DNA of 64,000 nt, from the IMG/VR virus record IMGVR_UViG_3300005529_000023, positions 1 through 64,000 of that record. One strand, given 5' to 3'. The position numbers were made by a program, and so were the translations under genes. Positions 13,306 through 48,052 of the stretch are shown piece by piece. The notes under the pieces were generated by a model, which had not been told where the DNA came from, ran no database searches, and saw nothing but the letters and a program-made list of their open reading frames with translations. The DNA is from a virus. Each line of letters opens with the position of its first letter. Position 1 is the stretch's first letter.

Positions 13306-13751
13306 AGAAGATCATTGATTCCATCGTGGAAATTCCCAGGGGTTCTACTTACAAGTACGAACTAGACGAGGAAACTGGTCAGCTTTATATTGATCGTCCT
13401 CTTCCTAGCCCATTGCCATACAATTATGGATTTGTGCCTGATACTTTATACGAGGACGGCGATCCGCTGGATGTCTGTATTATCGGAGATCCAATCGTTC
13501 CTAAAGCTTTAGTACGAGTGGAAGTCGTTGGTGCATTTCTTTGTGATGACAACGGCGATAAGGACGATAAAATCGTAGCAAAAGTCGTAGGAGAAGAGCT
13601 TCCCCTTCCGCTGTTTACTCATTTGGACGTAGTGTGCGACTATTTGGAAACCTACAAAGAAGGTTTTAAAGTCCTAAATTTCGTCGGTGCAGAAGACGCC
13701 ATGAAAATCGTTCAAGAAAGTCTCGTAAATGAACAAGATCCTAGAACTTAA
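13302..13751 (+). CDS. ppa: soluble inorganic pyrophosphatase (family I)
   Basis: VEIPRGS..KYE; PYNYGFVPDTL.EDGDPLDV; DDNGDKDDKI. Confidence 0.92.
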   Translation: MKKIIDSIVEIPRGSTYKYELDEETGQLYIDRPLPSPLPYNYGFVPDTLYEDGDPLDVCIIGDPIVPKALVRVEVVGAFLCDDNGDKDDKIVAKVVGEELPLPLFTHLDVVCDYLETYKEGFKVLNFVGAEDAMKIVQESLVNEQDPRT

Positions 13752-14754
13752 GTTTGGTTCGCATTTGTACGGTACAGATACACCCTCGTCCGATTTGGAC
13801 TACAAGGCGATTTACCTGCCTACGGCTAGGGAGATTGTACTTCATAAGTTCAAGGGGACAATCTGTAAGTCTCGACCAAAAGCTACGTACGAGCGCAACA
13901 ACAAGGACGATATCGACACTGAGATTTTCAGTCTAGATCGATATCTGGAACTTCTCATGGAAGGTCAGACGGTGGCTCTTGATCTGTTGTTTGCGCCTCG
14001 GTACATGTTCACGTACATGAAAACTGGAGAACACGGAATCGATCTTTTGGATCATATCTACGCTAATCGAGGAAGACTGATCACCAGGAACGTGAACGCT
14101 TTCGTTGGCTATGCGCGCCAGCAAGCTGCAAAGTACGGAATCAAAGGTTCCAGAATGGATGCCTTGAAGAGGGTTATGGAATACCTCGACTCTTTATTGG
14201 CTCTTAAACAGAATCCGTACAATAAGCTGTTGATGTACTCTGACTCTATCGATGCGCTTGTAAAAGAATGTCAAGGTTTCATTTCTCTTGAAAAGACTCC
14301 ATTAGTAGAAGTGGTTCTTTTAAAGGGTCCGAAGGGTTTGATCGATCAACCGCACATTCGTGTGAACGGTAGAAACATCCCGTTTCATGCCACGATCAAG
14401 TATGCCCGTGAGATCGTGGGAAAGATGCTCGATGGATATGGCCAAAGAGCGCACAAAGCTCATTTGGCCGGTGGAGTTGATTGGAAGGCTCTTTCCCATG
14501 CAGTTCGAGTGAACAGCGAAGCCCTTGAACTCTTGGCTAAGAATCACATCACGTTTCCTCGTCCTGATCGCGAGCTTCTTTTGCAGATCAAGAAGGGTGA
14601 GCTACCCTACGAGCAGGTGGCCGAAATCATTGAGGAAGGTTTGGCAAAGCTTTACGAAGCCCATGAACTCTCTCCCTTGAGGGAAAAGCCGGATTATGAA
14701 TGGTCTGAAAACTTCGTTTATGATGTCTATTCGAAGATCGTAAAAGATAGTTGA
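13729..14754 (+). CDS. RlaP-like Pol-beta superfamily nucleotidyltransferase
   Basis: FGSHLYGTDTPSSDLDYKAIY; DWKALSHAVR; LLQIKKGE. Confidence 0.85.
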   Translation: MNKILELKFGSHLYGTDTPSSDLDYKAIYLPTAREIVLHKFKGTICKSRPKATYERNNKDDIDTEIFSLDRYLELLMEGQTVALDLLFAPRYMFTYMKTGEHGIDLLDHIYANRGRLITRNVNAFVGYARQQAAKYGIKGSRMDALKRVMEYLDSLLALKQNPYNKLLMYSDSIDALVKECQGFISLEKTPLVEVVLLKGPKGLIDQPHIRVNGRNIPFHATIKYAREIVGKMLDGYGQRAHKAHLAGGVDWKALSHAVRVNSEALELLAKNHITFPRPDRELLLQIKKGELPYEQVAEIIEEGLAKLYEAHELSPLREKPDYEWSENFVYDVYSKIVKDS

Positions 14755-14779
14755 CTATTTTCCTTATCTATCTTATTTT
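14751..14779 (+). promoter_or_regulatory. sigma70-type promoter
   Basis: TTGACT-17-TATTTT; AGGAGAGG RBS downstream. Confidence 0.5.
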
Positions 14780-14796
14780 CTTATTTAGGAGAGGTT

Positions 14797-15729
14797 ATGC
14801 CGCAACTCACATTGCTGGTCGGTCCCGCTGGTTCGGGTAAGTCCACGTTAGCTAAGCAGCTTATTGCAAATACACCCGATATCGAGGGCGAGGCCGTCTA
14901 CATTAATCAGGATTCTCAGGGCAAAGAACATCTTGCCCTGTACGATGACGCCCTCTTAGCTGGAAAGAGCATTGTTGTCGATCGGATGAACTTCAACAAG
15001 TCTCAGAGAAATCGTTATCTGGATCTTGCAAAGGCCCGTGGCTATCGCACTAAGATCGTTGTCCTCCATGTGCCCTATTACGTGTGTTTTGAACGTTGTA
15101 TGTCTCGCAAGGACCATCAGACCATTAAGGATGAGGTTAATGCGCGAGCTGCGTTGGCTACCTTCTTCTCGAAGTATGAAAGGGTGTCTGACGATGAGGC
15201 AGATGTTGTAGAAAGACTCGGTTGGGAAGGTTATAAGCCACCCGCTGTCATTTGCGATCTGGATGGTACTCTCTGTGACATTAGACATCGTCTACATTAC
15301 GTTCGTAGACCGGAGGGTGAAAAGAAGGATTGGAAGGGCTTCTTCGATGAAATGAATGGAGATGCTGTAAACCAATGGTGTGCAGATATCCTCACGGCGG
15401 TGTCCGATGAAGTTGCCATCGTGTTTTGCTCTGGTCGCCCAGACAATCACAGGTCGGCAACTGTTGGTTGGCTTAAGAGAAATAGGATGTACGAGTTGAA
15501 TGAGGGAAACTACGGTGTTCCAGATTCTCCTTATGGCGATAAGTTTCATCTCTACATGAGACCTCGTGGAGATCAGAGAGACGACAGTATCATCAAGGAG
15601 ATCATTCTTGATTTTGAGATTCTTACTCGTTTCACGCCTCATTTCATGATTGATGATCGTAAGAGAGTGGTCGATATGTGGCGCTCGCGCGGCTATACGT
15701 GCCTTGCTTGTGCGGAAGGGAATTTCTAA
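14797..15729 (+). CDS. pseT: polynucleotide 5'-kinase / 3'-phosphatase (T4 PseT-like)
   Basis: GPAGSGKST P-loop kinase domain; DLDGT HAD domain; SGR; IDDRKRVVDMW. Confidence 0.9.
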   Translation: MPQLTLLVGPAGSGKSTLAKQLIANTPDIEGEAVYINQDSQGKEHLALYDDALLAGKSIVVDRMNFNKSQRNRYLDLAKARGYRTKIVVLHVPYYVCFERCMSRKDHQTIKDEVNARAALATFFSKYERVSDDEADVVERLGWEGYKPPAVICDLDGTLCDIRHRLHYVRRPEGEKKDWKGFFDEMNGDAVNQWCADILTAVSDEVAIVFCSGRPDNHRSATVGWLKRNRMYELNEGNYGVPDSPYGDKFHLYMRPRGDQRDDSIIKEIILDFEILTRFTPHFMIDDRKRVVDMWRSRGYTCLACAEGNF

Positions 15730-16961
15730 TGTTCAAATTTTTTGCAACCGACAATTGGTACAAGAAATGGGCAAAGAAAGAGGAAGAATACGAGAACAAG
15801 ACCGTATCTGAAGAACCTCCTGCCGAAGAGGATGATTCGGGAAGTACCTACAAGGTGCCTTATACGACTATCTTGAACGTAACTCCGCACAACAATGCCG
15901 ATCGTTTAGCAGTGTTTTGGGTCTATGGCTTTCAGGTCATTGCTCCGAAGGACAAGTTCCAGATTGGCGATAAGGTGATTTATATCCCGATCGATTCGAT
16001 CCTTCCTCAGTGGCTTGAGGATCGCCTTTTTCCCGCCGAAGCTAAGATCAAGTTGACCAAGCATCGAGTTCGTCAGATTCGAATTCGTAAGCTTGCATCT
16101 CAAGGTATGTTGATCAGCTTGGATGAGGTTCAAGACAAGGTTGGAACTCCAGAGTTGGAGGCAGATCTCAAGACCATTTTGGGAGTCAAGAAGTATCAAC
16201 CGCCTGCTCCGAAGATTCAAGGCCCAGCTGGTCCAAAGAATCGCAACAAGAAGCATGAACATCCGTTGTTCCACAAGTACAATGGCCTGGACAACATCAA
16301 GTGGTTCCCTGACCTGTTCAAGGAAGGTGAAACCGAAGTTGTGATCCAGGAGAAGTTGCATGGAACCAATGCCCGCGCATCCAAACTGCCCTTCATCGCT
16401 AACACCTGGCTCAAGAAGCTGAAGAAGCTGTTCGGTTTGGCTCCGAAGGTTGAGAAGTGCTATGGATCGAACAATGTGGATATTTCTGCCGCTTCAACCT
16501 ACAAAGGCTTCTATGGCGACGATGTCTACGGTAAGTGCTTTGATTCGATTGATGTCTTCAACAAGCTTCTGCTTGGGGAGATTGTTTACGGCGAGATCGT
16601 CGGACCTGGCATTCAAAAGAACTACGAGTATGGTCTGAAAGAACACCATTTCGTGGTTTTCGATGTCAAAGTCCTTCAACCGGACGGGAAGACATTTAAG
16701 TGGCTCACGCCCGATGAGGTTGCCAAGTTCTGTGAACAGAGAGGCTTTGAACATGTGCCTGTCCTCTACAAGGGCAAGTACTATCGAAACACTGCCTTTA
16801 GCTTCACTCAAGGCAAGTCCGCGTATGCCCCGGTCCAAAAGGTCAGGGAAGGTGTCGTCATCAAGGATGCCGTGGAATACGACTTTGGTGGTAACAAGAG
16901 GGCCTTGAAGTGGGTTTCTGAGGAGTATCTCGATGACAGTTCGAACACCGACTTCCACTAA
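15729..16961 (+). CDS. ATP-dependent RNA ligase, DRB0094-like with N-terminal OB fold
   Basis: H.NADRL..; YIPIDSILP; SQG; motif I EKLHGTN; GEIVG; FDV; REGVVIK; KWVSEEYL; start at the TAATG junction. Confidence 0.88.
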   Translation: MFKFFATDNWYKKWAKKEEEYENKTVSEEPPAEEDDSGSTYKVPYTTILNVTPHNNADRLAVFWVYGFQVIAPKDKFQIGDKVIYIPIDSILPQWLEDRLFPAEAKIKLTKHRVRQIRIRKLASQGMLISLDEVQDKVGTPELEADLKTILGVKKYQPPAPKIQGPAGPKNRNKKHEHPLFHKYNGLDNIKWFPDLFKEGETEVVIQEKLHGTNARASKLPFIANTWLKKLKKLFGLAPKVEKCYGSNNVDISAASTYKGFYGDDVYGKCFDSIDVFNKLLLGEIVYGEIVGPGIQKNYEYGLKEHHFVVFDVKVLQPDGKTFKWLTPDEVAKFCEQRGFEHVPVLYKGKYYRNTAFSFTQGKSAYAPVQKVREGVVIKDAVEYDFGGNKRALKWVSEEYLDDSSNTDFH

Positions 16962-21389: not shown

Positions 21390-21824
21390 ATGAAAGTTTT
21401 GTTTCTCGATTTTGACGGTGTTTTGAACCTATATCCGCAAATCAGTCGTGGCATTGATTTCTACAAGCCTGCTTGTGTAAATTTAGAACTCCTACTTAAG
21501 AAAGTTCCCGATCTCAAGATTGTGGTTTCTAGCGCTTGGCGAATGCATGGTTTGCAATATGTCAAGAACGTACTTCAGCACAACGGAATTGATCCAAGAC
21601 GTGTCATTGATATCACTGGCGAAGAAAAGATCGGCGGACAACCTCACAGAGGACACCAGATTCAGTGCTGGCTGGTCGCGCACCCTGGAGTTACGAAGTT
21701 CGCAATTTTAGACGATTTCTCTGATATGGAACCCTATATGAATAAGCTGGTCAAAACGAGTAGTTATATCGGATTGACACAGGCTAACGTCGAGAAAGTA
21801 CTAGAGATTTTGGACGAAAAATAA
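21390..21824 (+). CDS. second HAD_SAK-type phosphatase
   Basis: KVLFLDFDGVLN; IVVSSAWR; RGHQIQCWL; FAILDD; GLT. Confidence 0.85.
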   Translation: MKVLFLDFDGVLNLYPQISRGIDFYKPACVNLELLLKKVPDLKIVVSSAWRMHGLQYVKNVLQHNGIDPRRVIDITGEEKIGGQPHRGHQIQCWLVAHPGVTKFAILDDFSDMEPYMNKLVKTSSYIGLTQANVEKVLEILDEK

Positions 21825-23070: not shown

Positions 23071-23507
23071 TTCGCAAACTAATTCACAAAATCAAGATGG
23101 TGCTTCATCCCCCAAAGTGTGGGGAAGTGTATAGTGGAGATTGCTTTGATTTTGTGGTCGGCAAGCCTGTAGAGAAGTTCCTTCATGGAATGACTGACAA
23201 ATATGGTAATTTTCTTTGGGAGTATGTTCCTGGTCGAGATAGCTATAGGTTCACTGTAATCAGCGTTCAGCCAGCTTACTATATTTGTGAAGCCGAACTT
23301 TTGGTATCATTCTGCCATGATATTAACAAGAAGAAGTGGTTGAAGAGAAGTCGAATGAGACGTATCCCAAAGATCATGTTTCATGACTTCATCTTGACCG
23401 AAAGGCTAGAAAAGAATGTCGCTCTCAATCGCCGAGGAGAGGTACCAGGAACTGGTAAGCAAGGAAAAGCGTCTACAGGAGATCCTAAGCGTTCATCCCG
23501 AACTTGA
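23067..23507 (+). CDS. hypothetical protein
   Basis: ORF track; 3' end overlaps next ORF by about 90 nt. Confidence 0.6.
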   Translation: MIRKLIHKIKMVLHPPKCGEVYSGDCFDFVVGKPVEKFLHGMTDKYGNFLWEYVPGRDSYRFTVISVQPAYYICEAELLVSFCHDINKKKWLKRSRMRRIPKIMFHDFILTERLEKNVALNRRGEVPGTGKQGKASTGDPKRSSRT

Positions 23508-23703
23508 ATCTGGTCAGAAACTCACTTCCACGGCAAGAAAATACAAGAAAGCGCTAGAAGAACTTCTCGATGAAGTTGTCAAAGTTACAACATGCGAGGA
23601 GTTTACGGCTATCTTCCAGGTCGCTTGGATGCATGGATTCAAGTATAACGGTCCCAATTTAGGTACAGTCTTAGAGAAGACAAAGAAATTATTGGGGAAG
23701 TAA
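23416..23703 (+). CDS. hypothetical coiled-coil protein
   Basis: ORF track. Confidence 0.6.
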   Translation: MSLSIAEERYQELVSKEKRLQEILSVHPELESGQKLTSTARKYKKALEELLDEVVKVTTCEEFTAIFQVAWMHGFKYNGPNLGTVLEKTKKLLGK

Positions 23704-23707
23704 TCTT
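23701..23707 (+). promoter_or_regulatory. putative phage late-promoter motif
   Basis: TAATCTT, 5 nt before G1 of the ncRNA. Confidence 0.5.
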
Positions 23708-23712
23708 TTATT

Positions 23713-23842
23713 GGGGTCGAGTAGACAGCCCGATTTTCTGCTGGTTCACACGGGAGAGTGATTAAATGGAACAGTCCAACCCACAGCCGGCCGTTTAAAG
23801 AAGATTGGAAACCAGAGGGGCAGCGCCTCTGCGACTCCACCA
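23713..23842 (+). ncRNA. 130-nt miniature tmRNA-like / tRNA-Ala-mimic RNA
   Basis: GGGGTCG pairs with CGACTCC (G3:U70), then A73 and encoded CCA; T-arm CAGAGG-GGCAGCG-CCTCTG; P2-like helix 23730-23738/23800-23808; no D-stem or anticodon arm; intergenic. Confidence 0.75.
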
Positions 23843-23865
23843 ATTTTACAAAGTGATAGCACAAG

Positions 23866-23903
23866 AGGTCGGGGAGAGGCAGTTTCCGTAGGCTCCCCGG
23901 CCT
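23866..23903 (+). repeat. GC-rich hairpin downstream of the ncRNA
   Basis: AGGTCGGGGAG / CTCCCCGGCCT 11-bp stem (one G:U); no U-tract. Confidence 0.65.
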
Positions 23904-23914
23904 AGAAAGAATGT

Positions 23915-24109
23915 ATGACTTTTGAAATCAACGAAAAACAAAAGAAGGCCATTGATAAGTGGCTACGATCGTTGCACAGAAGCAAGAAGCCCTACTACGG
24001 TAGAGACGTGCATTATATTTTTCAGAACACGGGAATAGGCGTAAGTTTGGATGTGAAGGACTTGAAGACTGGCAAAGTCAAAGACTTCACTGACTACGAT
24101 ACTTGGTAA
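23915..24109 (+). CDS. small hypothetical protein
   Basis: ORF track. Confidence 0.65.
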   Translation: MTFEINEKQKKAIDKWLRSLHRSKKPYYGRDVHYIFQNTGIGVSLDVKDLKTGKVKDFTDYDTW

Positions 24110-26674: not shown

Positions 26675-29071
26675 ATGGCGATCAAAAAAGAACTTCTAAT
26701 TTCAACAAAGTTTGATACCTCGGACTTCGATAAGGCCGTGGAAAGAATGCAGAATAAGCTGAAGGACTTGTACGCTCCTTCGGACATGGTTCGCGCTCAG
26801 ACTATGACTGCCAATCGCCTGAATCAGTATGGTATCGGTGGTGGACAGCCTAAATCGCACGCTGAATATCAAAGAACTGCCATGCAATCGCGCAGGGAAC
26901 TTGACAGCTACATCAGAGAGCAAGCTCAGGGACAGCAAAAGCTGGCTCAGTTTATCGATAAGCGCGCCCAGAAGATGGTTGAATTGAGAGACAGGCAGAA
27001 AGAGCTGACCAAGGGTACTCAAGAAGAACTTGAGATCAGAGAAAAATTAGTCAGGATGGAGAACAACCTCTATCGTCAAAGAGAGTACTATCTAGAAAGA
27101 AACAAAACGCTCAATCAGGGTCTCGATGCTCGCAACAAAGTTGCGCCAAGAGATATCCCAGGACTTCTTGAAGCTTTCAGAGGCGGCGGCCTGAAATATG
27201 GAATGTCGCAAATTCCTGGCGCTCTCAGACAGAACCCTCTTGGAATGGGCGGAAGCCTCCTCGGCCTAGCTAGTTCAGGTTTGATTGCAGGTTCGGAGTT
27301 CTATCGCGATTGGAAAGGGATGCCAATGCGTTCCGAGGCTGCTACTGGAAGCGCGGTGCAGGGCACTTTTGGTCGTGACATTAACAACATTTATGGTCGT
27401 CGATCTGTCTTTGAACAGAACTTCCAAGATGAACGTCAACGTGCTGCTCAAATGTCCATTGAACGAAACTTGGCCGAACGCAGATCAGACAAGGCTAGCT
27501 TAGCTGGCAACCTAGGTCTTGTAGGGGCAGGAACTGCTACCGCCGTAGGAACTGGCTGGACTGGTATTGGCGCCCTGGCAGGTGTTGGTGCGGCAGGAAC
27601 GGGACTATGGAGAATGTTGAGTGATGAACGTCAACGTTCTTTGATGCTAAGCCCCTTCTCGAAAACTGCCAATAATCGCTATGAGTCCATGTTGAACGAA
27701 AACTTGGGCAAGAATTACGGCGATACCTATGAGGCGTTGAAGAATCAGAATCCATTTAAGACTCAAGCTGTCGGAGAATATGAGCAGAACTACATGAGAA
27801 ACCTTCAGGCTCAACGCCAAATGGGTCTTGGCGATGAAGGTCTATATGGAGAAGGTGGCTTCTTCCGTAAGAATCTCGGCGCCGGTTTCTTGCCAGAAAT
27901 GGGTCTTGAAATGGCCGGAAATATTCAAGGTGCTGGTGGTTCGACCAGAATGCAGAGAGAGTCTGTATTTGGAAATCAGCTTTCTCGTGGATTGAACTTA
28001 ACTAATGCTGGTAGCATTCTCGGTACTCTTAGCGGTCAGATGGGAGGCGCTGAAGTTACGAAACAGGCTACTATCAAAATCCTAGCCGAAGGAATGAAGC
28101 AAGGGTTAGACGATAGTAAGTTCGTAGAAGAAAACCGTAGATTCACTCAGGCAGCTGCAGAGATCATTGCTCGAACGGGCGCTAGAGGCGGCGATGTTGA
28201 CCGCGTAGCTTCGGAATTTGGCAAAGGTCTTTCCGAGAACACCATGAGAGGTATTGAAGGCGCCAGGACTGCCTACGAAGAGTATCAGAACATTTCCAGC
28301 ACGACAACTGGTCCTCGTGGCGTAATGCGAGCGGCGGCTTTCTTGAAAGATGACAAGTTGTCAAAGCTTTCTACCGTAGAAAAGCAAGCGATCATGCAGA
28401 TTCCAGAAGGTGAGCTGAATGAGGACAACCTTCTAGTTGCTGGTGCTGCAGAGAAGCTTGGGATTAGTCCTAAGGATTTAGTCGATCGTATCAAAGGCGC
28501 AAACGAAGGTTCTGTCAGTCGATTCAAAGAAGCTGACCAACTAAGAGATAAGCTCAAGAGCAGAATGAAGGAACTTGGAATCACTAAAATCTCCAGAGAT
28601 AACCTAAAGTCTTTGCCAGCAGACGTAAGAATGGCCGCGTACAATTTGGGTGCATTCCAGACTACTGAGCTAGGCAATAAGGGTGAAATTGAGTCGTATT
28701 CCCGTTTAAATAGAAGTTTAGGCGCAGGAGCCGAAACTCCTTTTGATATCCAATCGGATAGAGAGTCTATCCTTAGAGCGAAAGCAGAAGGTAGAGACAC
28801 TGGAAGAATGGGCGACACCACAGTTGGCGCGATGGCTCAAGACGCTTCTATTGTGAACAGGGAGTTCAATAAGATGCGTGGTGAGATGGATGAAACCGCT
28901 AAGTCTGTACTCAAATTCGGCGAAGCAGTCAGAGATCTGAACGTGCAGCTACAAAAGGCTTTAGAAGATGCAAGAAATGGCAAGGGCAATACAAACGTTA
29001 TCAATGATCTCTTACAGAAGCTAATGACTGCTTCTGGCAATCAGGTTCAGGGCGGGAAGGTCTCTAAGTAA
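26675..29071 (+). CDS. tail tape measure protein
   Basis: 798 aa; N-terminal coiled coil; Gly/Ala-rich hydrophobic middle; heads the baseplate cluster. Confidence 0.75.
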   Translation: MAIKKELLISTKFDTSDFDKAVERMQNKLKDLYAPSDMVRAQTMTANRLNQYGIGGGQPKSHAEYQRTAMQSRRELDSYIREQAQGQQKLAQFIDKRAQKMVELRDRQKELTKGTQEELEIREKLVRMENNLYRQREYYLERNKTLNQGLDARNKVAPRDIPGLLEAFRGGGLKYGMSQIPGALRQNPLGMGGSLLGLASSGLIAGSEFYRDWKGMPMRSEAATGSAVQGTFGRDINNIYGRRSVFEQNFQDERQRAAQMSIERNLAERRSDKASLAGNLGLVGAGTATAVGTGWTGIGALAGVGAAGTGLWRMLSDERQRSLMLSPFSKTANNRYESMLNENLGKNYGDTYEALKNQNPFKTQAVGEYEQNYMRNLQAQRQMGLGDEGLYGEGGFFRKNLGAGFLPEMGLEMAGNIQGAGGSTRMQRESVFGNQLSRGLNLTNAGSILGTLSGQMGGAEVTKQATIKILAEGMKQGLDDSKFVEENRRFTQAAAEIIARTGARGGDVDRVASEFGKGLSENTMRGIEGARTAYEEYQNISSTTTGPRGVMRAAAFLKDDKLSKLSTVEKQAIMQIPEGELNEDNLLVAGAAEKLGISPKDLVDRIKGANEGSVSRFKEADQLRDKLKSRMKELGITKISRDNLKSLPADVRMAAYNLGAFQTTELGNKGEIESYSRLNRSLGAGAETPFDIQSDRESILRAKAEGRDTGRMGDTTVGAMAQDASIVNREFNKMRGEMDETAKSVLKFGEAVRDLNVQLQKALEDARNGKGNTNVINDLLQKLMTASGNQVQGGKVSK

Positions 29072-47615: not shown

Positions 47616-48052
47616 TTTTCAGCCAATTCATTTCTACAAGATAGTTTGTCCTGTAAGTTCTCTGCTAGATACTTCTGTACTCTTCGAACGTATTTGAGGT
47701 TGCGTGGATAGCCTGGGAATCTCTTGCTCTCGTTGAAAGAGCCGGCATTGTACGCAGCGGTCAACTTGCACCAGTCTTCTTCGCCATATCTCGATACTTG
47801 ATATGCGAGATATCTTGCGGCCCATTTAGCATTCGTGACTGGATTCATCAGTTCCAGGGTCTTGCCCTTGAATCCTAACATCCTGGCTGTGCCCTCTTTG
47901 ACATGGCAAATTCCATAGCTTGGGGAGCCGCCGTCCACTTTATTGATCTGGACAGTAAAACCATTACTTTCGTAGGAACAAATTGCAAAAAGTAGCGTAC
48001 CAGACACCTTCGCGATTTTGGCAGCTTTCATAATGACGGAAAGATAATACAT
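47612..48052 (-). CDS. SLT-family lytic transglycosylase
   Basis: AICSYESNG; SYGICHVK..TA; AAYNAG; YVRRV; GGAGGT RBS. Confidence 0.88.
   Translation of the reverse strand: MYYLSVIMKAAKIAKVSGTLLFAICSYESNGFTVQINKVDGGSPSYGICHVKEGTARMLGFKGKTLELMNPVTNAKWAARYLAYQVSRYGEEDWCKLTAAYNAGSFNESKRFPGYPRNLKYVRRVQKYLAENLQDKLSCRNELAEK

What the first reader, a model, noticed from the sequence alone, without database searches (positions are those of the whole stretch)
23713..23842. 130-nt miniature tmRNA-like, alanine-chargeable RNA encoded by a phage
Seen: 5' GGGGUCG pairs over 7 bp with CGACUCC (23832-38), giving G1:C72, G2:C71, G3:U70, discriminator A and an encoded CCA. A T-arm with a GGCAGCG loop stacks on it. 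A 10-nt unpaired D-loop-like segment containing GAC follows the 5' strand, then a 9-bp helix (CCGAUUUUC/GAAGAUUGG) and a second helix (GCUGGUU 23740-46 / AGCCGGC 23785-91) enclose the interior. There is no D-stem or anticodon arm. Established: G3:U70 plus A73 are the AlaRS identity elements; this D-loop/P2/T-arm layout is the tmRNA tRNA-like domain; GGCRGUA-type T-loops occur in alphaproteobacterial and mitochondrial tmRNAs; ordinary tmRNAs are roughly 260-430 nt. Inference: this is either a minimal trans-translation RNA that releases ribosomes stalled on cleaved mRNA, or a decoy for host SmpB, AlaRS, EF-Tu or anticodon nucleases. Both ends are present, so it is not an attP fragment. Deviation: the T-stem can form 6 bp rather than 5. 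At this size, ARAGORN/tRNAscan would probably miss it.
Basis: partly seen in the sequence, partly recalled or inferred. Interest (0 to 1): 0.9.

Follow-up and report, generated by a model that had tools for sequence, protein, structure and literature searches.

The report
Phage tag-less miniature tmRNA gene
This 177-kb uncultured phage carries a real, conserved 130-base gene that copies the alanine-accepting, tRNA-like end of the bacterial ribosome-rescue RNA (tmRNA) without a conserved tag message; one phage precedent is published (DS6A), and the RNA most likely competes with the host's rescue system.

Summary
Thermodynamics and chance alone are weak support, but comparison with other sequences is decisive.

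- **Orthologues:** seven lie at the same syntenic spot in related phages. They keep the acceptor stem, the base of P2 and the 6-bp T-stem (98% of cells paired, 11 of 18 pairs with compensatory changes).
- **Link to tmRNA:** the unusual T-arm (loop GGCAGCN) also occurs in RNAs that Rfam scores as true tmRNAs. A D-loop motif close to the window's occurs in some of these. They come from phages, Eremiobacterota, Bacillota and Alphaproteobacteria.
- **Wider family:** the same T-arm occurs in 73-131-nt tRNA-like RNAs of unrelated phages, which ARAGORN does not call and Rfam does not score at gathering.
- **Sister phages:** some carry a full-length tmRNA at another locus. None of 12 near-complete genomes has both forms.
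- **Tag frame:** the 10-codon frame is not conserved, and the interior is swapped between relatives.

It is therefore a tmRNA reduced to its tRNA-like domain (TLD) with no tag coding sequence (CDS). The kind was published for mycobacteriophage DS6A, whose form inhibits host tmRNA in E. coli. Charging, SmpB binding and expression are untested. This scan has noted such mini-tmRNAs before, in at least 22 other genomes.

The parts
23702..23712 (+). conserved 11-nt leader directly 5' of G1
   Evidence: An AAUCU-type leader precedes G1 in all 8 orthologues. It is not repeated elsewhere in the genome. Its role is unknown; a processing context is inferred.
23713..23719 (+). acceptor stem, 5' strand (G1-G7)
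   Evidence: It pairs with 23832-38. Pairs 4-6 covary in orthologues and family members. G3 is kept in 7 of 8 orthologues.
23720..23729 (+). D-loop-like unpaired linker (10 nt, no D-stem)
   Evidence: The motif is shared with the other minis and with some phage full-length tmRNAs. Orthologue L147 and minis L094/L099/L108 carry a near-canonical tmRNA D-loop ending.
23730..23746 (+). P2 helix, 5' strand (10 + 7 nt)
   Evidence: The five basal pairs covary in 7 orthologues, with 4 of 5 pairs changed on both sides. By eye, the upper helix is also kept in L151 with one compensatory change, read from the sequences.
23747..23784 (+). apical 38-nt region ('type I' interior)
   Evidence: Long identical runs are shared with L151, fewer with L149. 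It is replaced by three hairpins in five other orthologues. Rfam gives no match, and there is no significant similarity to full-length phage tmRNA bodies.
23766..23798 (+). 10-codon AUG...UAA frame (proposed tag); judged not functional
   Evidence: In L151 the same frame has no stop and runs through the 3' end. Differences are mostly at second codon positions. The frame is absent from type II orthologues.
23785..23808 (+). P2 helix, 3' strand with a 7-nt bulge (23792-98)
23809..23812 (+). linker before the T-arm, ending in the conserved AC
   Evidence: AC is invariant in 9 family members and 7 orthologues. It matches the ...AC that precedes the T-stem in full-length tmRNAs.
23813..23831 (+). 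T-arm: 6-bp stem and 7-nt loop (GGCAGCG)
   Evidence: four pairs covary. The same arm occurs in Rfam-scored tmRNAs.
23832..23842 (+). acceptor 3' strand, discriminator A73, encoded CCA
   Evidence: Most of the phage's own tRNA genes also encode CCA. ACCA is kept in 7 of 8 orthologues.
23843..23902 (+). U-rich trailer, a conserved ~20-nt block and an 11-bp hairpin (23866-23903 in the fold)
   Evidence: The fold is -23.5 kcal/mol, z = -2.9. The block and hairpin recur after the RNA in G004 and L140, where compensatory changes were seen by eye. In L147 and L144 the block recurs further downstream, where the print-out is cut off. They are absent in L151, L139 and L149. A terminator or processing element is inferred.

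Best explanation
This is a phage gene for a tag-less miniature tmRNA. It consists of a complete tmRNA-type tRNA-like domain (TLD) and a P2 helix capped by a lineage-specific insert.

Shown here:
- The gene is real and under purifying selection on structure.
- Its T-arm is that of bona fide tmRNAs, and its D-loop motif resembles that of some of them.
- It has no conserved coding frame.

Inferred:
- The RNA is cut out of a polycistronic transcript like a tRNA (RNase P at G1, 3' trimming to the encoded CCA).
- Host AlaRS charges it with alanine through G3:U70 and A73.
- Host SmpB and EF-Tu bind it; the phage encodes no SmpB.
- It then competes with host tmRNA for SmpB and for stalled ribosomes. 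Nascent chains are therefore not given the host degradation tag, and the tmRNA-linked quality-control response is blunted during infection.

Whether the ribosome is merely blocked or is actually released without a tag is not decided.
For: - **Structure and covariation:**
- **Synteny:** seven orthologues lie at the same spot, downstream of ThyX and the Rrf2-like gene and upstream of the PagL-like gene.
- **T-arm signature:** it retrieves 24 viral loci, and 20 have a fully paired 6-bp T-stem. Nine of the 24 are Rfam tmRNAs (standard or permuted) and 10 are 73-131-nt minis that ARAGORN does not call and Rfam does not score at gathering.
- **D-loop:** the 5' D-loop motif of the minis resembles that of some full-length phage tmRNAs.
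- **Bacterial occurrence:** in bacterial genomes the same arm sits only in roughly 350-nt or permuted tmRNAs.
- **tRNA arrays:** one mini lies between tRNA genes, only a few nt from each.
- **Sister phages:** five carry full-length tmRNAs at a different locus. Among 12 near-complete genomes, 2 have the mini, 3 have the full-length form and none has both.
- **No phage SmpB:**
- **No conserved frame:**
- **Published precedent:** DS6A is listed as 'TLD only', and a similar molecule inhibits tmRNA in E. coli, perhaps by titrating SmpB (PMC4131195; PMC11915505, both citing Mao et al. 2009). The DS6A gene was located at 28478-28560 of its record and has the same layout.
Against:
- The linker is 10 nt, against about 12-14 nt in the tmRNAs compared. 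It lacks the GG and part of the ...UCGAC block seen in several of them, so SmpB and T-loop contacts may differ.
- One orthologue (L144) has A3:U70, and one (L149) lacks an encoded CCA. Charging may therefore not be essential.
- A pure SmpB sponge does not explain why the 38-nt apical region shares long identical runs with L151.
- It also does not explain why a UAA at RNA positions 51-53 is shared by the window and L151.
- Sister phages carry full-length, presumably rescue-competent tmRNAs. This pattern fits 'tag-free rescue' as well as it fits 'inhibition'.
Confidence: 0.6

Rival explanations
1. It is a complete but minimal tmRNA. After alanine transfer the ribosome resumes on the apical loop and terminates. 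Termination would occur either after the 10-codon frame (23766-98) or at once at the UAA at 23763-65, giving ribosome release with a one-residue or very short tag.
For: A UAA sits at RNA position 51-53 in both the window and L151, and a few codons later in the same frame in L149. Some type II relatives have a stop in the loop of their first hairpin, near position 41-45. Natural tmRNAs with 2-residue tags exist (PMC11915505). Sister phages carry full-length tmRNAs, so rescue is something this clade invests in.
Against: No frame or peptide is shared across the eight orthologues, and the 10-codon frame loses its stop in L151. Peptide ends are not hydrophobic Ala-Ala-like. There is no room for pseudoknots. 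From my own knowledge of tmRNA-ribosome structures, a 38-nt loop closed by 17 bp seems too short to thread the mRNA channel. The 73-89-nt family members have only a closed hairpin and cannot template anything. Stops in A/U-rich loops are expected by chance.
Confidence: 0.13
2. It is a tRNA-like processing or decoy element whose target is not trans-translation. One form is an RNase P/RNase Z 'punctuation' site that splits the polycistronic transcript. Another is a scaffold presenting the interior module as bait for host RNA-targeting defence or tRNA-modifying enzymes.
For: The RNA lies 9 nt after one ORF. In L151 and L139 the next start codon follows within about 5 nt of the CCA. Interiors are exchanged as modules, independently of TLD type. 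In G004 and L147 the interior scores as a tRNA-like cloverleaf (RF00005, 26.1 and 27.9 bits, just under the cut-off of 29). The phage invests heavily in RNA repair: RlaP, PNKP and an RNA ligase at about 13.7-17 kb, and a HAD_SAK phosphatase at 21.4 kb.
Against: A mere cleavage signal would not need G3:U70, A73 and an encoded CCA kept in 7 of 8 orthologues. It would also not need a tmRNA-specific D-loop and T-arm. The window's own interior has no tRNA-like or other Rfam match.
Confidence: 0.15
3. It is an inert relic: a decayed tmRNA gene, or an attP-type fragment left by integration into ssrA.
For: Sister phages have full-length tmRNAs. Three syntenic relatives have lost the element (L141, L145, L150).
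Against: Compensatory changes in three helices and kept identity elements across phages with only 65-76% ThyX identity show selection. Both halves of the TLD are present. The locus differs from that of the full-length genes. No integrase lies nearby in the window.
Confidence: 0.04

Closest known systems
'TLD only' (CDS-less) tmRNA of Mycobacterium phage DS6A (record JN698994, 28478-28560; Hudson, Lau & Williams 2014, PMC4131195; PMC11915505; Mao et al. 2009 as cited there)
   Same: It is phage-encoded. It has an acceptor stem with G3:U70 and A73, an unpaired D-loop, a single P2 hairpin and a T-arm, and no tag frame. It shows that such an RNA can inhibit host tmRNA.
   Different: DS6A is 83 nt. 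It has a canonical 5-bp T-stem, a UUCGAUU loop and a 14-nt D-loop, and no encoded CCA. It scores 43 bits on RF00023. The window's RNA is 130 nt, has the 6-bp/GGCAGCG arm, a 10-nt linker, a 17-bp P2 and a conserved 38-nt cap. It gets no Rfam score at all, and model R2 does not find DS6A.
CDS-less organellar tmRNAs (jakobid and other mitochondria, Rfam RF02544; ~65-bp plastid forms; PMC11915505, Jacob et al. 2004)
   Same: These are tmRNAs reduced to the tRNA-like domain. They are thought to work with SmpB without a tag frame.
   Different: They are organellar, vertically inherited and much shorter. The window gave no RF02544 match at E<=10.
Standard and permuted tmRNA (SsrA; Rfam RF00023, RF01849, RF04321), including the full-length tmRNAs of sister phages
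   Same: The acceptor identity set, the D-loop motif, the ...AC linker and the 6-bp/GGCAGCN T-arm are shared with Rfam-scored tmRNAs.
   Different: The window's RNA has no pseudoknots, no conserved resume codon, tag or stop, and about a third of the length. It lies at a different genomic locus from the sister phages' full-length genes.
tRNA-Ala
   Same: G1:C72, G2:C71, G3:U70, G4:C69, A73 and CCA.
   Different: The window's RNA has no D-stem and no anticodon arm. The acceptor and T helices together stack to 13 bp. ARAGORN and RF00005 give no call.

Membership tests
tmRNA sensu stricto (SsrA; Rfam RF00023 and clan) | Acceptor stem with G3:U70, discriminator A73 and a CCA end | tested here: met
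   G3:U70 is kept in 7 of 8 orthologues and in 9 of 9 family members.
tmRNA sensu stricto (SsrA; Rfam RF00023 and clan) | Unpaired D-loop in place of a D-arm, carrying the conserved tmRNA motif | tested here: inconclusive
   There is no D-stem. The linker is 10 nt and keeps only part of the motif. Orthologue L147 and other minis carry a near-canonical ending.
tmRNA sensu stricto (SsrA; Rfam RF00023 and clan) | P2 helix joining the 5' and 3' parts of the TLD | tested here: met
   Four of the 5 basal pairs covary.
tmRNA sensu stricto (SsrA; Rfam RF00023 and clan) | T-arm stacked on the acceptor stem | tested here: met
   It is the 6-bp / 7-nt-loop variant, identical in type to that of RNAs scoring 75-98 bits on RF00023.
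tmRNA sensu stricto (SsrA; Rfam RF00023 and clan) | mRNA-like domain: resume codon, conserved tag frame with a hydrophobic end, and a stop | tested here: not met
   No frame is shared among the 8 orthologues, and the stop is lost in L151.
tmRNA sensu stricto (SsrA; Rfam RF00023 and clan) | Pseudoknots PK1-PK4 (or substitutes) forming the ring | tested here: not met
   Only 38 nt lie beyond P2. The folds show simple hairpins. The folding tools cannot predict pseudoknots, but the size excludes the ring.
tmRNA sensu stricto (SsrA; Rfam RF00023 and clan) | Score at or above the Rfam gathering threshold | tested here: not met
   There is no match even at E<=10 and none for the whole genome.
CDS-less / TLD-only tmRNA (DS6A type) | Complete TLD closer to tmRNA than to tRNA, with no tag CDS | tested here: met
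   The DS6A layout was compared.
CDS-less / TLD-only tmRNA (DS6A type) | Binds SmpB and inhibits or replaces host tmRNA | not testable with these tools
   Known only from the literature for the DS6A-like form (PMC4131195, PMC11915505).
tRNA (RF00005) | Cloverleaf with a D-arm and an anticodon arm | tested here: not met

The most novel reading that the evidence does not exclude
The TLD is a constant, SmpB/AlaRS-recognised scaffold on which phages display exchangeable cargo modules. In this clade the cargo is either the conserved 38-nt type I loop or a nested tRNA-like cloverleaf. These mini-tmRNAs would then do more than sponge SmpB. They might act as one-codon, tag-free ribosome-release devices, or deliver a decoy to the stalled ribosome or to RNA-targeting defence enzymes.
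Probability: 0.15. Interest if true: 0.8.

Novelty: new variant of a known kind. Interest (0 to 1): 0.5.

Why it matters
- **Scope of the phenomenon:** tag-less tmRNA mimics would be a recurrent phage tool rather than a DS6A oddity. This lineage is invisible to ARAGORN and Rfam, and one clade alternates between full-length and miniature forms.
- **Testable questions:** it makes two open questions approachable. One is what phages gain from touching trans-translation. The other is how small an RNA can be and still engage SmpB, EF-Tu and a stalled ribosome.
- **Practical point:** a covariance model for this T-arm type would improve annotation of phage genomes.
- **Limit on surprise:** the kind itself is already published, and this scan has met it repeatedly.

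Tried and rejected
- **BLAST against cultured phages:** nothing for the region or the RNA. Nothing useful for two other minis.
- **Exact 20-mers in viral contigs:** none.
- **Two metagenome pattern scans:** none.
- **Neighbour-protein routes that failed:** the 95-aa upstream protein has no homologues. The 798-aa protein and the GMP reductase gave no related viral loci.
- **Single-sequence model R1:** it found only one of the orthologues.
- **Myxococcus phage Mx1:** the nearest isolate (TerL 34% identity) lacks the RNA.
- **Promoter and terminator scan:** nothing on the + strand.
- **5' leader motif:** it is not a repeated promoter in this genome.
- **Interior versus full-length phage tmRNA bodies:** no significant similarity. 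One of 40 comparisons reached z = 3.7, taken as noise.
- **Type I interior motif in viral contigs:** the only match is a viral record of the same length as L149's contig (85,756 nt), taken to be the L149 phage.
- **Weak R2 hit at 47696-47773:** E is about 0.1-0.2. A 146-aa ORF on the opposite strand spans the site. Rejected as noise.
- **Chance:** rejected by covariation.
- **attP fragment and pseudogene:** rejected by the presence of both halves and by selection on the stems.

Full report
**1. What is in the sequence**

The 130 nt at 23713-23842 (+) lie in a 211-nt gap between two co-oriented ORFs (23416-23703 and 23915-24109).
- a 7-bp acceptor stem with G3:U70, A73 and an encoded CCA;
- a 10-nt unpaired linker;
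- a P2 helix of 10 + 7 bp with a 7-nt bulge;
- a 4-nt linker;
- a 6-bp T-stem with loop GGCAGCG.

ARAGORN and Rfam report nothing, even at E<=10. On its own the element is not compelling. The fold z-score is -2.1. A bare acceptor/T-hairpin/NCCA layout arises about 0.5 times per random genome of this size.

The window belongs to a 176,870-bp IMG/VR phage record rated complete. The phage has 17 tRNA genes elsewhere. Most encode CCA and none is tRNA-Ala.

**2. Relatives**

The phage is far from cultured phages. The best large-terminase (TerL) match is Myxococcus phage Mx1 at 34% identity, and Mx1 lacks the RNA.

A TerL alignment retrieved 80 related viral loci. A single-sequence covariance model (R1) found one orthologue, in a 170-kb record called G004. 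The gene order around it is the same as in the window.

Using ThyX, 4 kb upstream, as an anchor, I fetched syntenic stretches from other assemblies. A family model (R2) found the RNA in six more: L139, L140, L144, L147, L149 and L151. It was absent from L141, L145/146 and L150.

In a MAFFT alignment of seven orthologues, the acceptor stem, the base of P2 and the T-stem are 98.4% paired. Eleven of 18 pairs change on both sides, and slid controls give 39-49% paired. G3:U70 and ACCA are each kept in 7 of 8 orthologues. L144 has A3:U70 and L149 ends differently. This is a real gene under selection for this structure.

**3. Why tmRNA**

I scanned all viral contigs for the T-loop plus the acceptor end. 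The scan gave 24 loci, and 20 have a fully paired 6-bp T-stem. They fall into three groups:
- Nine are Rfam tmRNAs, either standard (75-98 bits) or permuted/alpha.
- Ten (eight distinct sequences) are 73-131-nt RNAs that ARAGORN does not call and that Rfam does not score at its gathering thresholds. They have the same layout, a simple or elaborate P2 hairpin, and G3:U70 in every case. One lies between tRNA genes, only a few nt from each.
- The other five are unclassified. Two are probably chance matches.

The 5' linker motif of the minis resembles the D-loop of some full-length phage tmRNAs. The ...AC before the T-stem is shared too.

In bacterial genomes the same arm sits in roughly 350-nt tmRNAs of Eremiobacterota/Vulcanimicrobiota and some Bacillota, and in permuted alphaproteobacterial genes.

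**4. Pattern within the clade**

Five TerL relatives carry full-length tmRNAs above Rfam's cut-off. These genes lie next to homologues of this phage's genes at about 118-128 and 160 kb, not at the mini's locus.

Among 12 near-complete genomes, two have the mini, three have the full-length form and none has both. No SmpB gene is present in five of these phages, including the window's own.

**5. No conserved tag**

The proposed 10-codon frame (23766-98) has a counterpart only in L151. There the start and the stop are gone, the frame runs out of the 3' end, and most differences are second-position changes.

Five orthologues have a different interior ('type II') of three hairpins, each with compensatory changes. 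In G004 and L147 that interior scores as a tRNA-like cloverleaf just under Rfam's tRNA cut-off (26.1 and 27.9 bits). L140's does not.

Interior type and TLD type are shuffled among phages. The window and G004 share a nearly identical TLD but have unrelated interiors. The window and L151 share the interior but differ by compensatory changes in the stems. The middle therefore behaves as an exchangeable module.

The type I cap nevertheless shares long identical runs with L151 and contains a shared UAA at RNA positions 51-53. A pure sponge model does not explain this.

**6. Comparison with the literature**

Hudson, Lau & Williams list mycobacteriophage DS6A as 'TLD only'. They note that a similar molecule, chargeable or not, strongly inhibits tmRNA, perhaps by titrating SmpB (PMC4131195). 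The 2025 tmRNA database paper repeats this and adds CDS-less mitochondrial and plastid forms (PMC11915505).

I located the DS6A gene. It has the same layout with canonical loops, is 83 nt long, and scores 43 bits on RF00023.

The window's RNA is thus a member of a published kind. It comes from a different tmRNA lineage, carries a longer P2 and a conserved cap, and is undetectable by the standard tools.

After reaching this view I searched the scan's notes. At least 24 earlier findings in 22 or more genomes describe phage mini-tmRNAs and reach the same reading. These are not independent evidence.

**7. Mechanism**

Shown here: gene, structure, tmRNA-type TLD, no conserved frame, no phage SmpB.

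Inferred: tRNA-like processing, alanylation, binding of host SmpB and EF-Tu, and competition with host tmRNA at stalled ribosomes.

I cannot decide between inhibition of tagging and tag-free release. The alternation with full-length tmRNAs in sister phages fits either. A templating role is unlikely on size and topology, and because the smallest family members are closed hairpins. It is not excluded for the roughly 130-nt class.

Noticed in passing
L089:1544-1603 (-) and L147:12680-12743 (+), inside the orthologous mini-tmRNAs: In 'type II' orthologues the P2 helix is capped by three hairpins. In two phages these score as a tRNA-like cloverleaf on RF00005 (26.1 and 27.9 bits, cut-off 29), including a T-arm-like hairpin with one extra loop base. 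This looks like a tRNA-like body nested in a tmRNA TLD shell.
   Followed up: partly
window 23843-23903: A conserved ~20-nt block and an 11-bp hairpin (-23.5 kcal/mol, z = -2.9) follow the CCA. They recur after the RNA in G004 and L140, where compensatory changes were seen by eye. In L147 and L144 the block recurs further downstream, and an extra conserved insert of roughly 60 nt lies between the CCA and the block.
   Followed up: partly
window 23702-23712: An 11-nt AAUCU-type leader directly 5' of G1 is conserved in all eight orthologues. Similar A/U-rich leaders precede unrelated minis (L099, L110). It is not repeated elsewhere in this genome, so it is not a general promoter.
   Followed up: partly
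window 13729-16961 and 21390-21824: There is an RNA-repair set: an RlaP-family nucleotidyltransferase, a PNKP (kinase + HAD phosphatase), an RNA ligase with an OB domain, and a HAD_SAK_2 phosphatase. RlaP, PNKP and the ligase recur in most syntenic relatives, usually with a peptide deformylase gene.
   Followed up: partly
L147:12961-13524: In one relative, a serine recombinase (Resolvase + HTH_7) gene sits about 175 nt downstream of the mini-tmRNA. None of the other syntenic loci has it.
   Followed up: no
L108:275-798: A ROOL RNA (RF03087, 233 bits) lies beside a tRNA. It is about 2 kb from a 73-nt mini-tmRNA in an unrelated 131-kb viral contig.
   Followed up: no
G000 genome 114528-114642 (+), outside the window: A second acceptor/T-hairpin/GCCA layout of 115 nt turned up in my motif scan. 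About two such layouts per genome are expected by chance, and it was not examined further.
   Followed up: no
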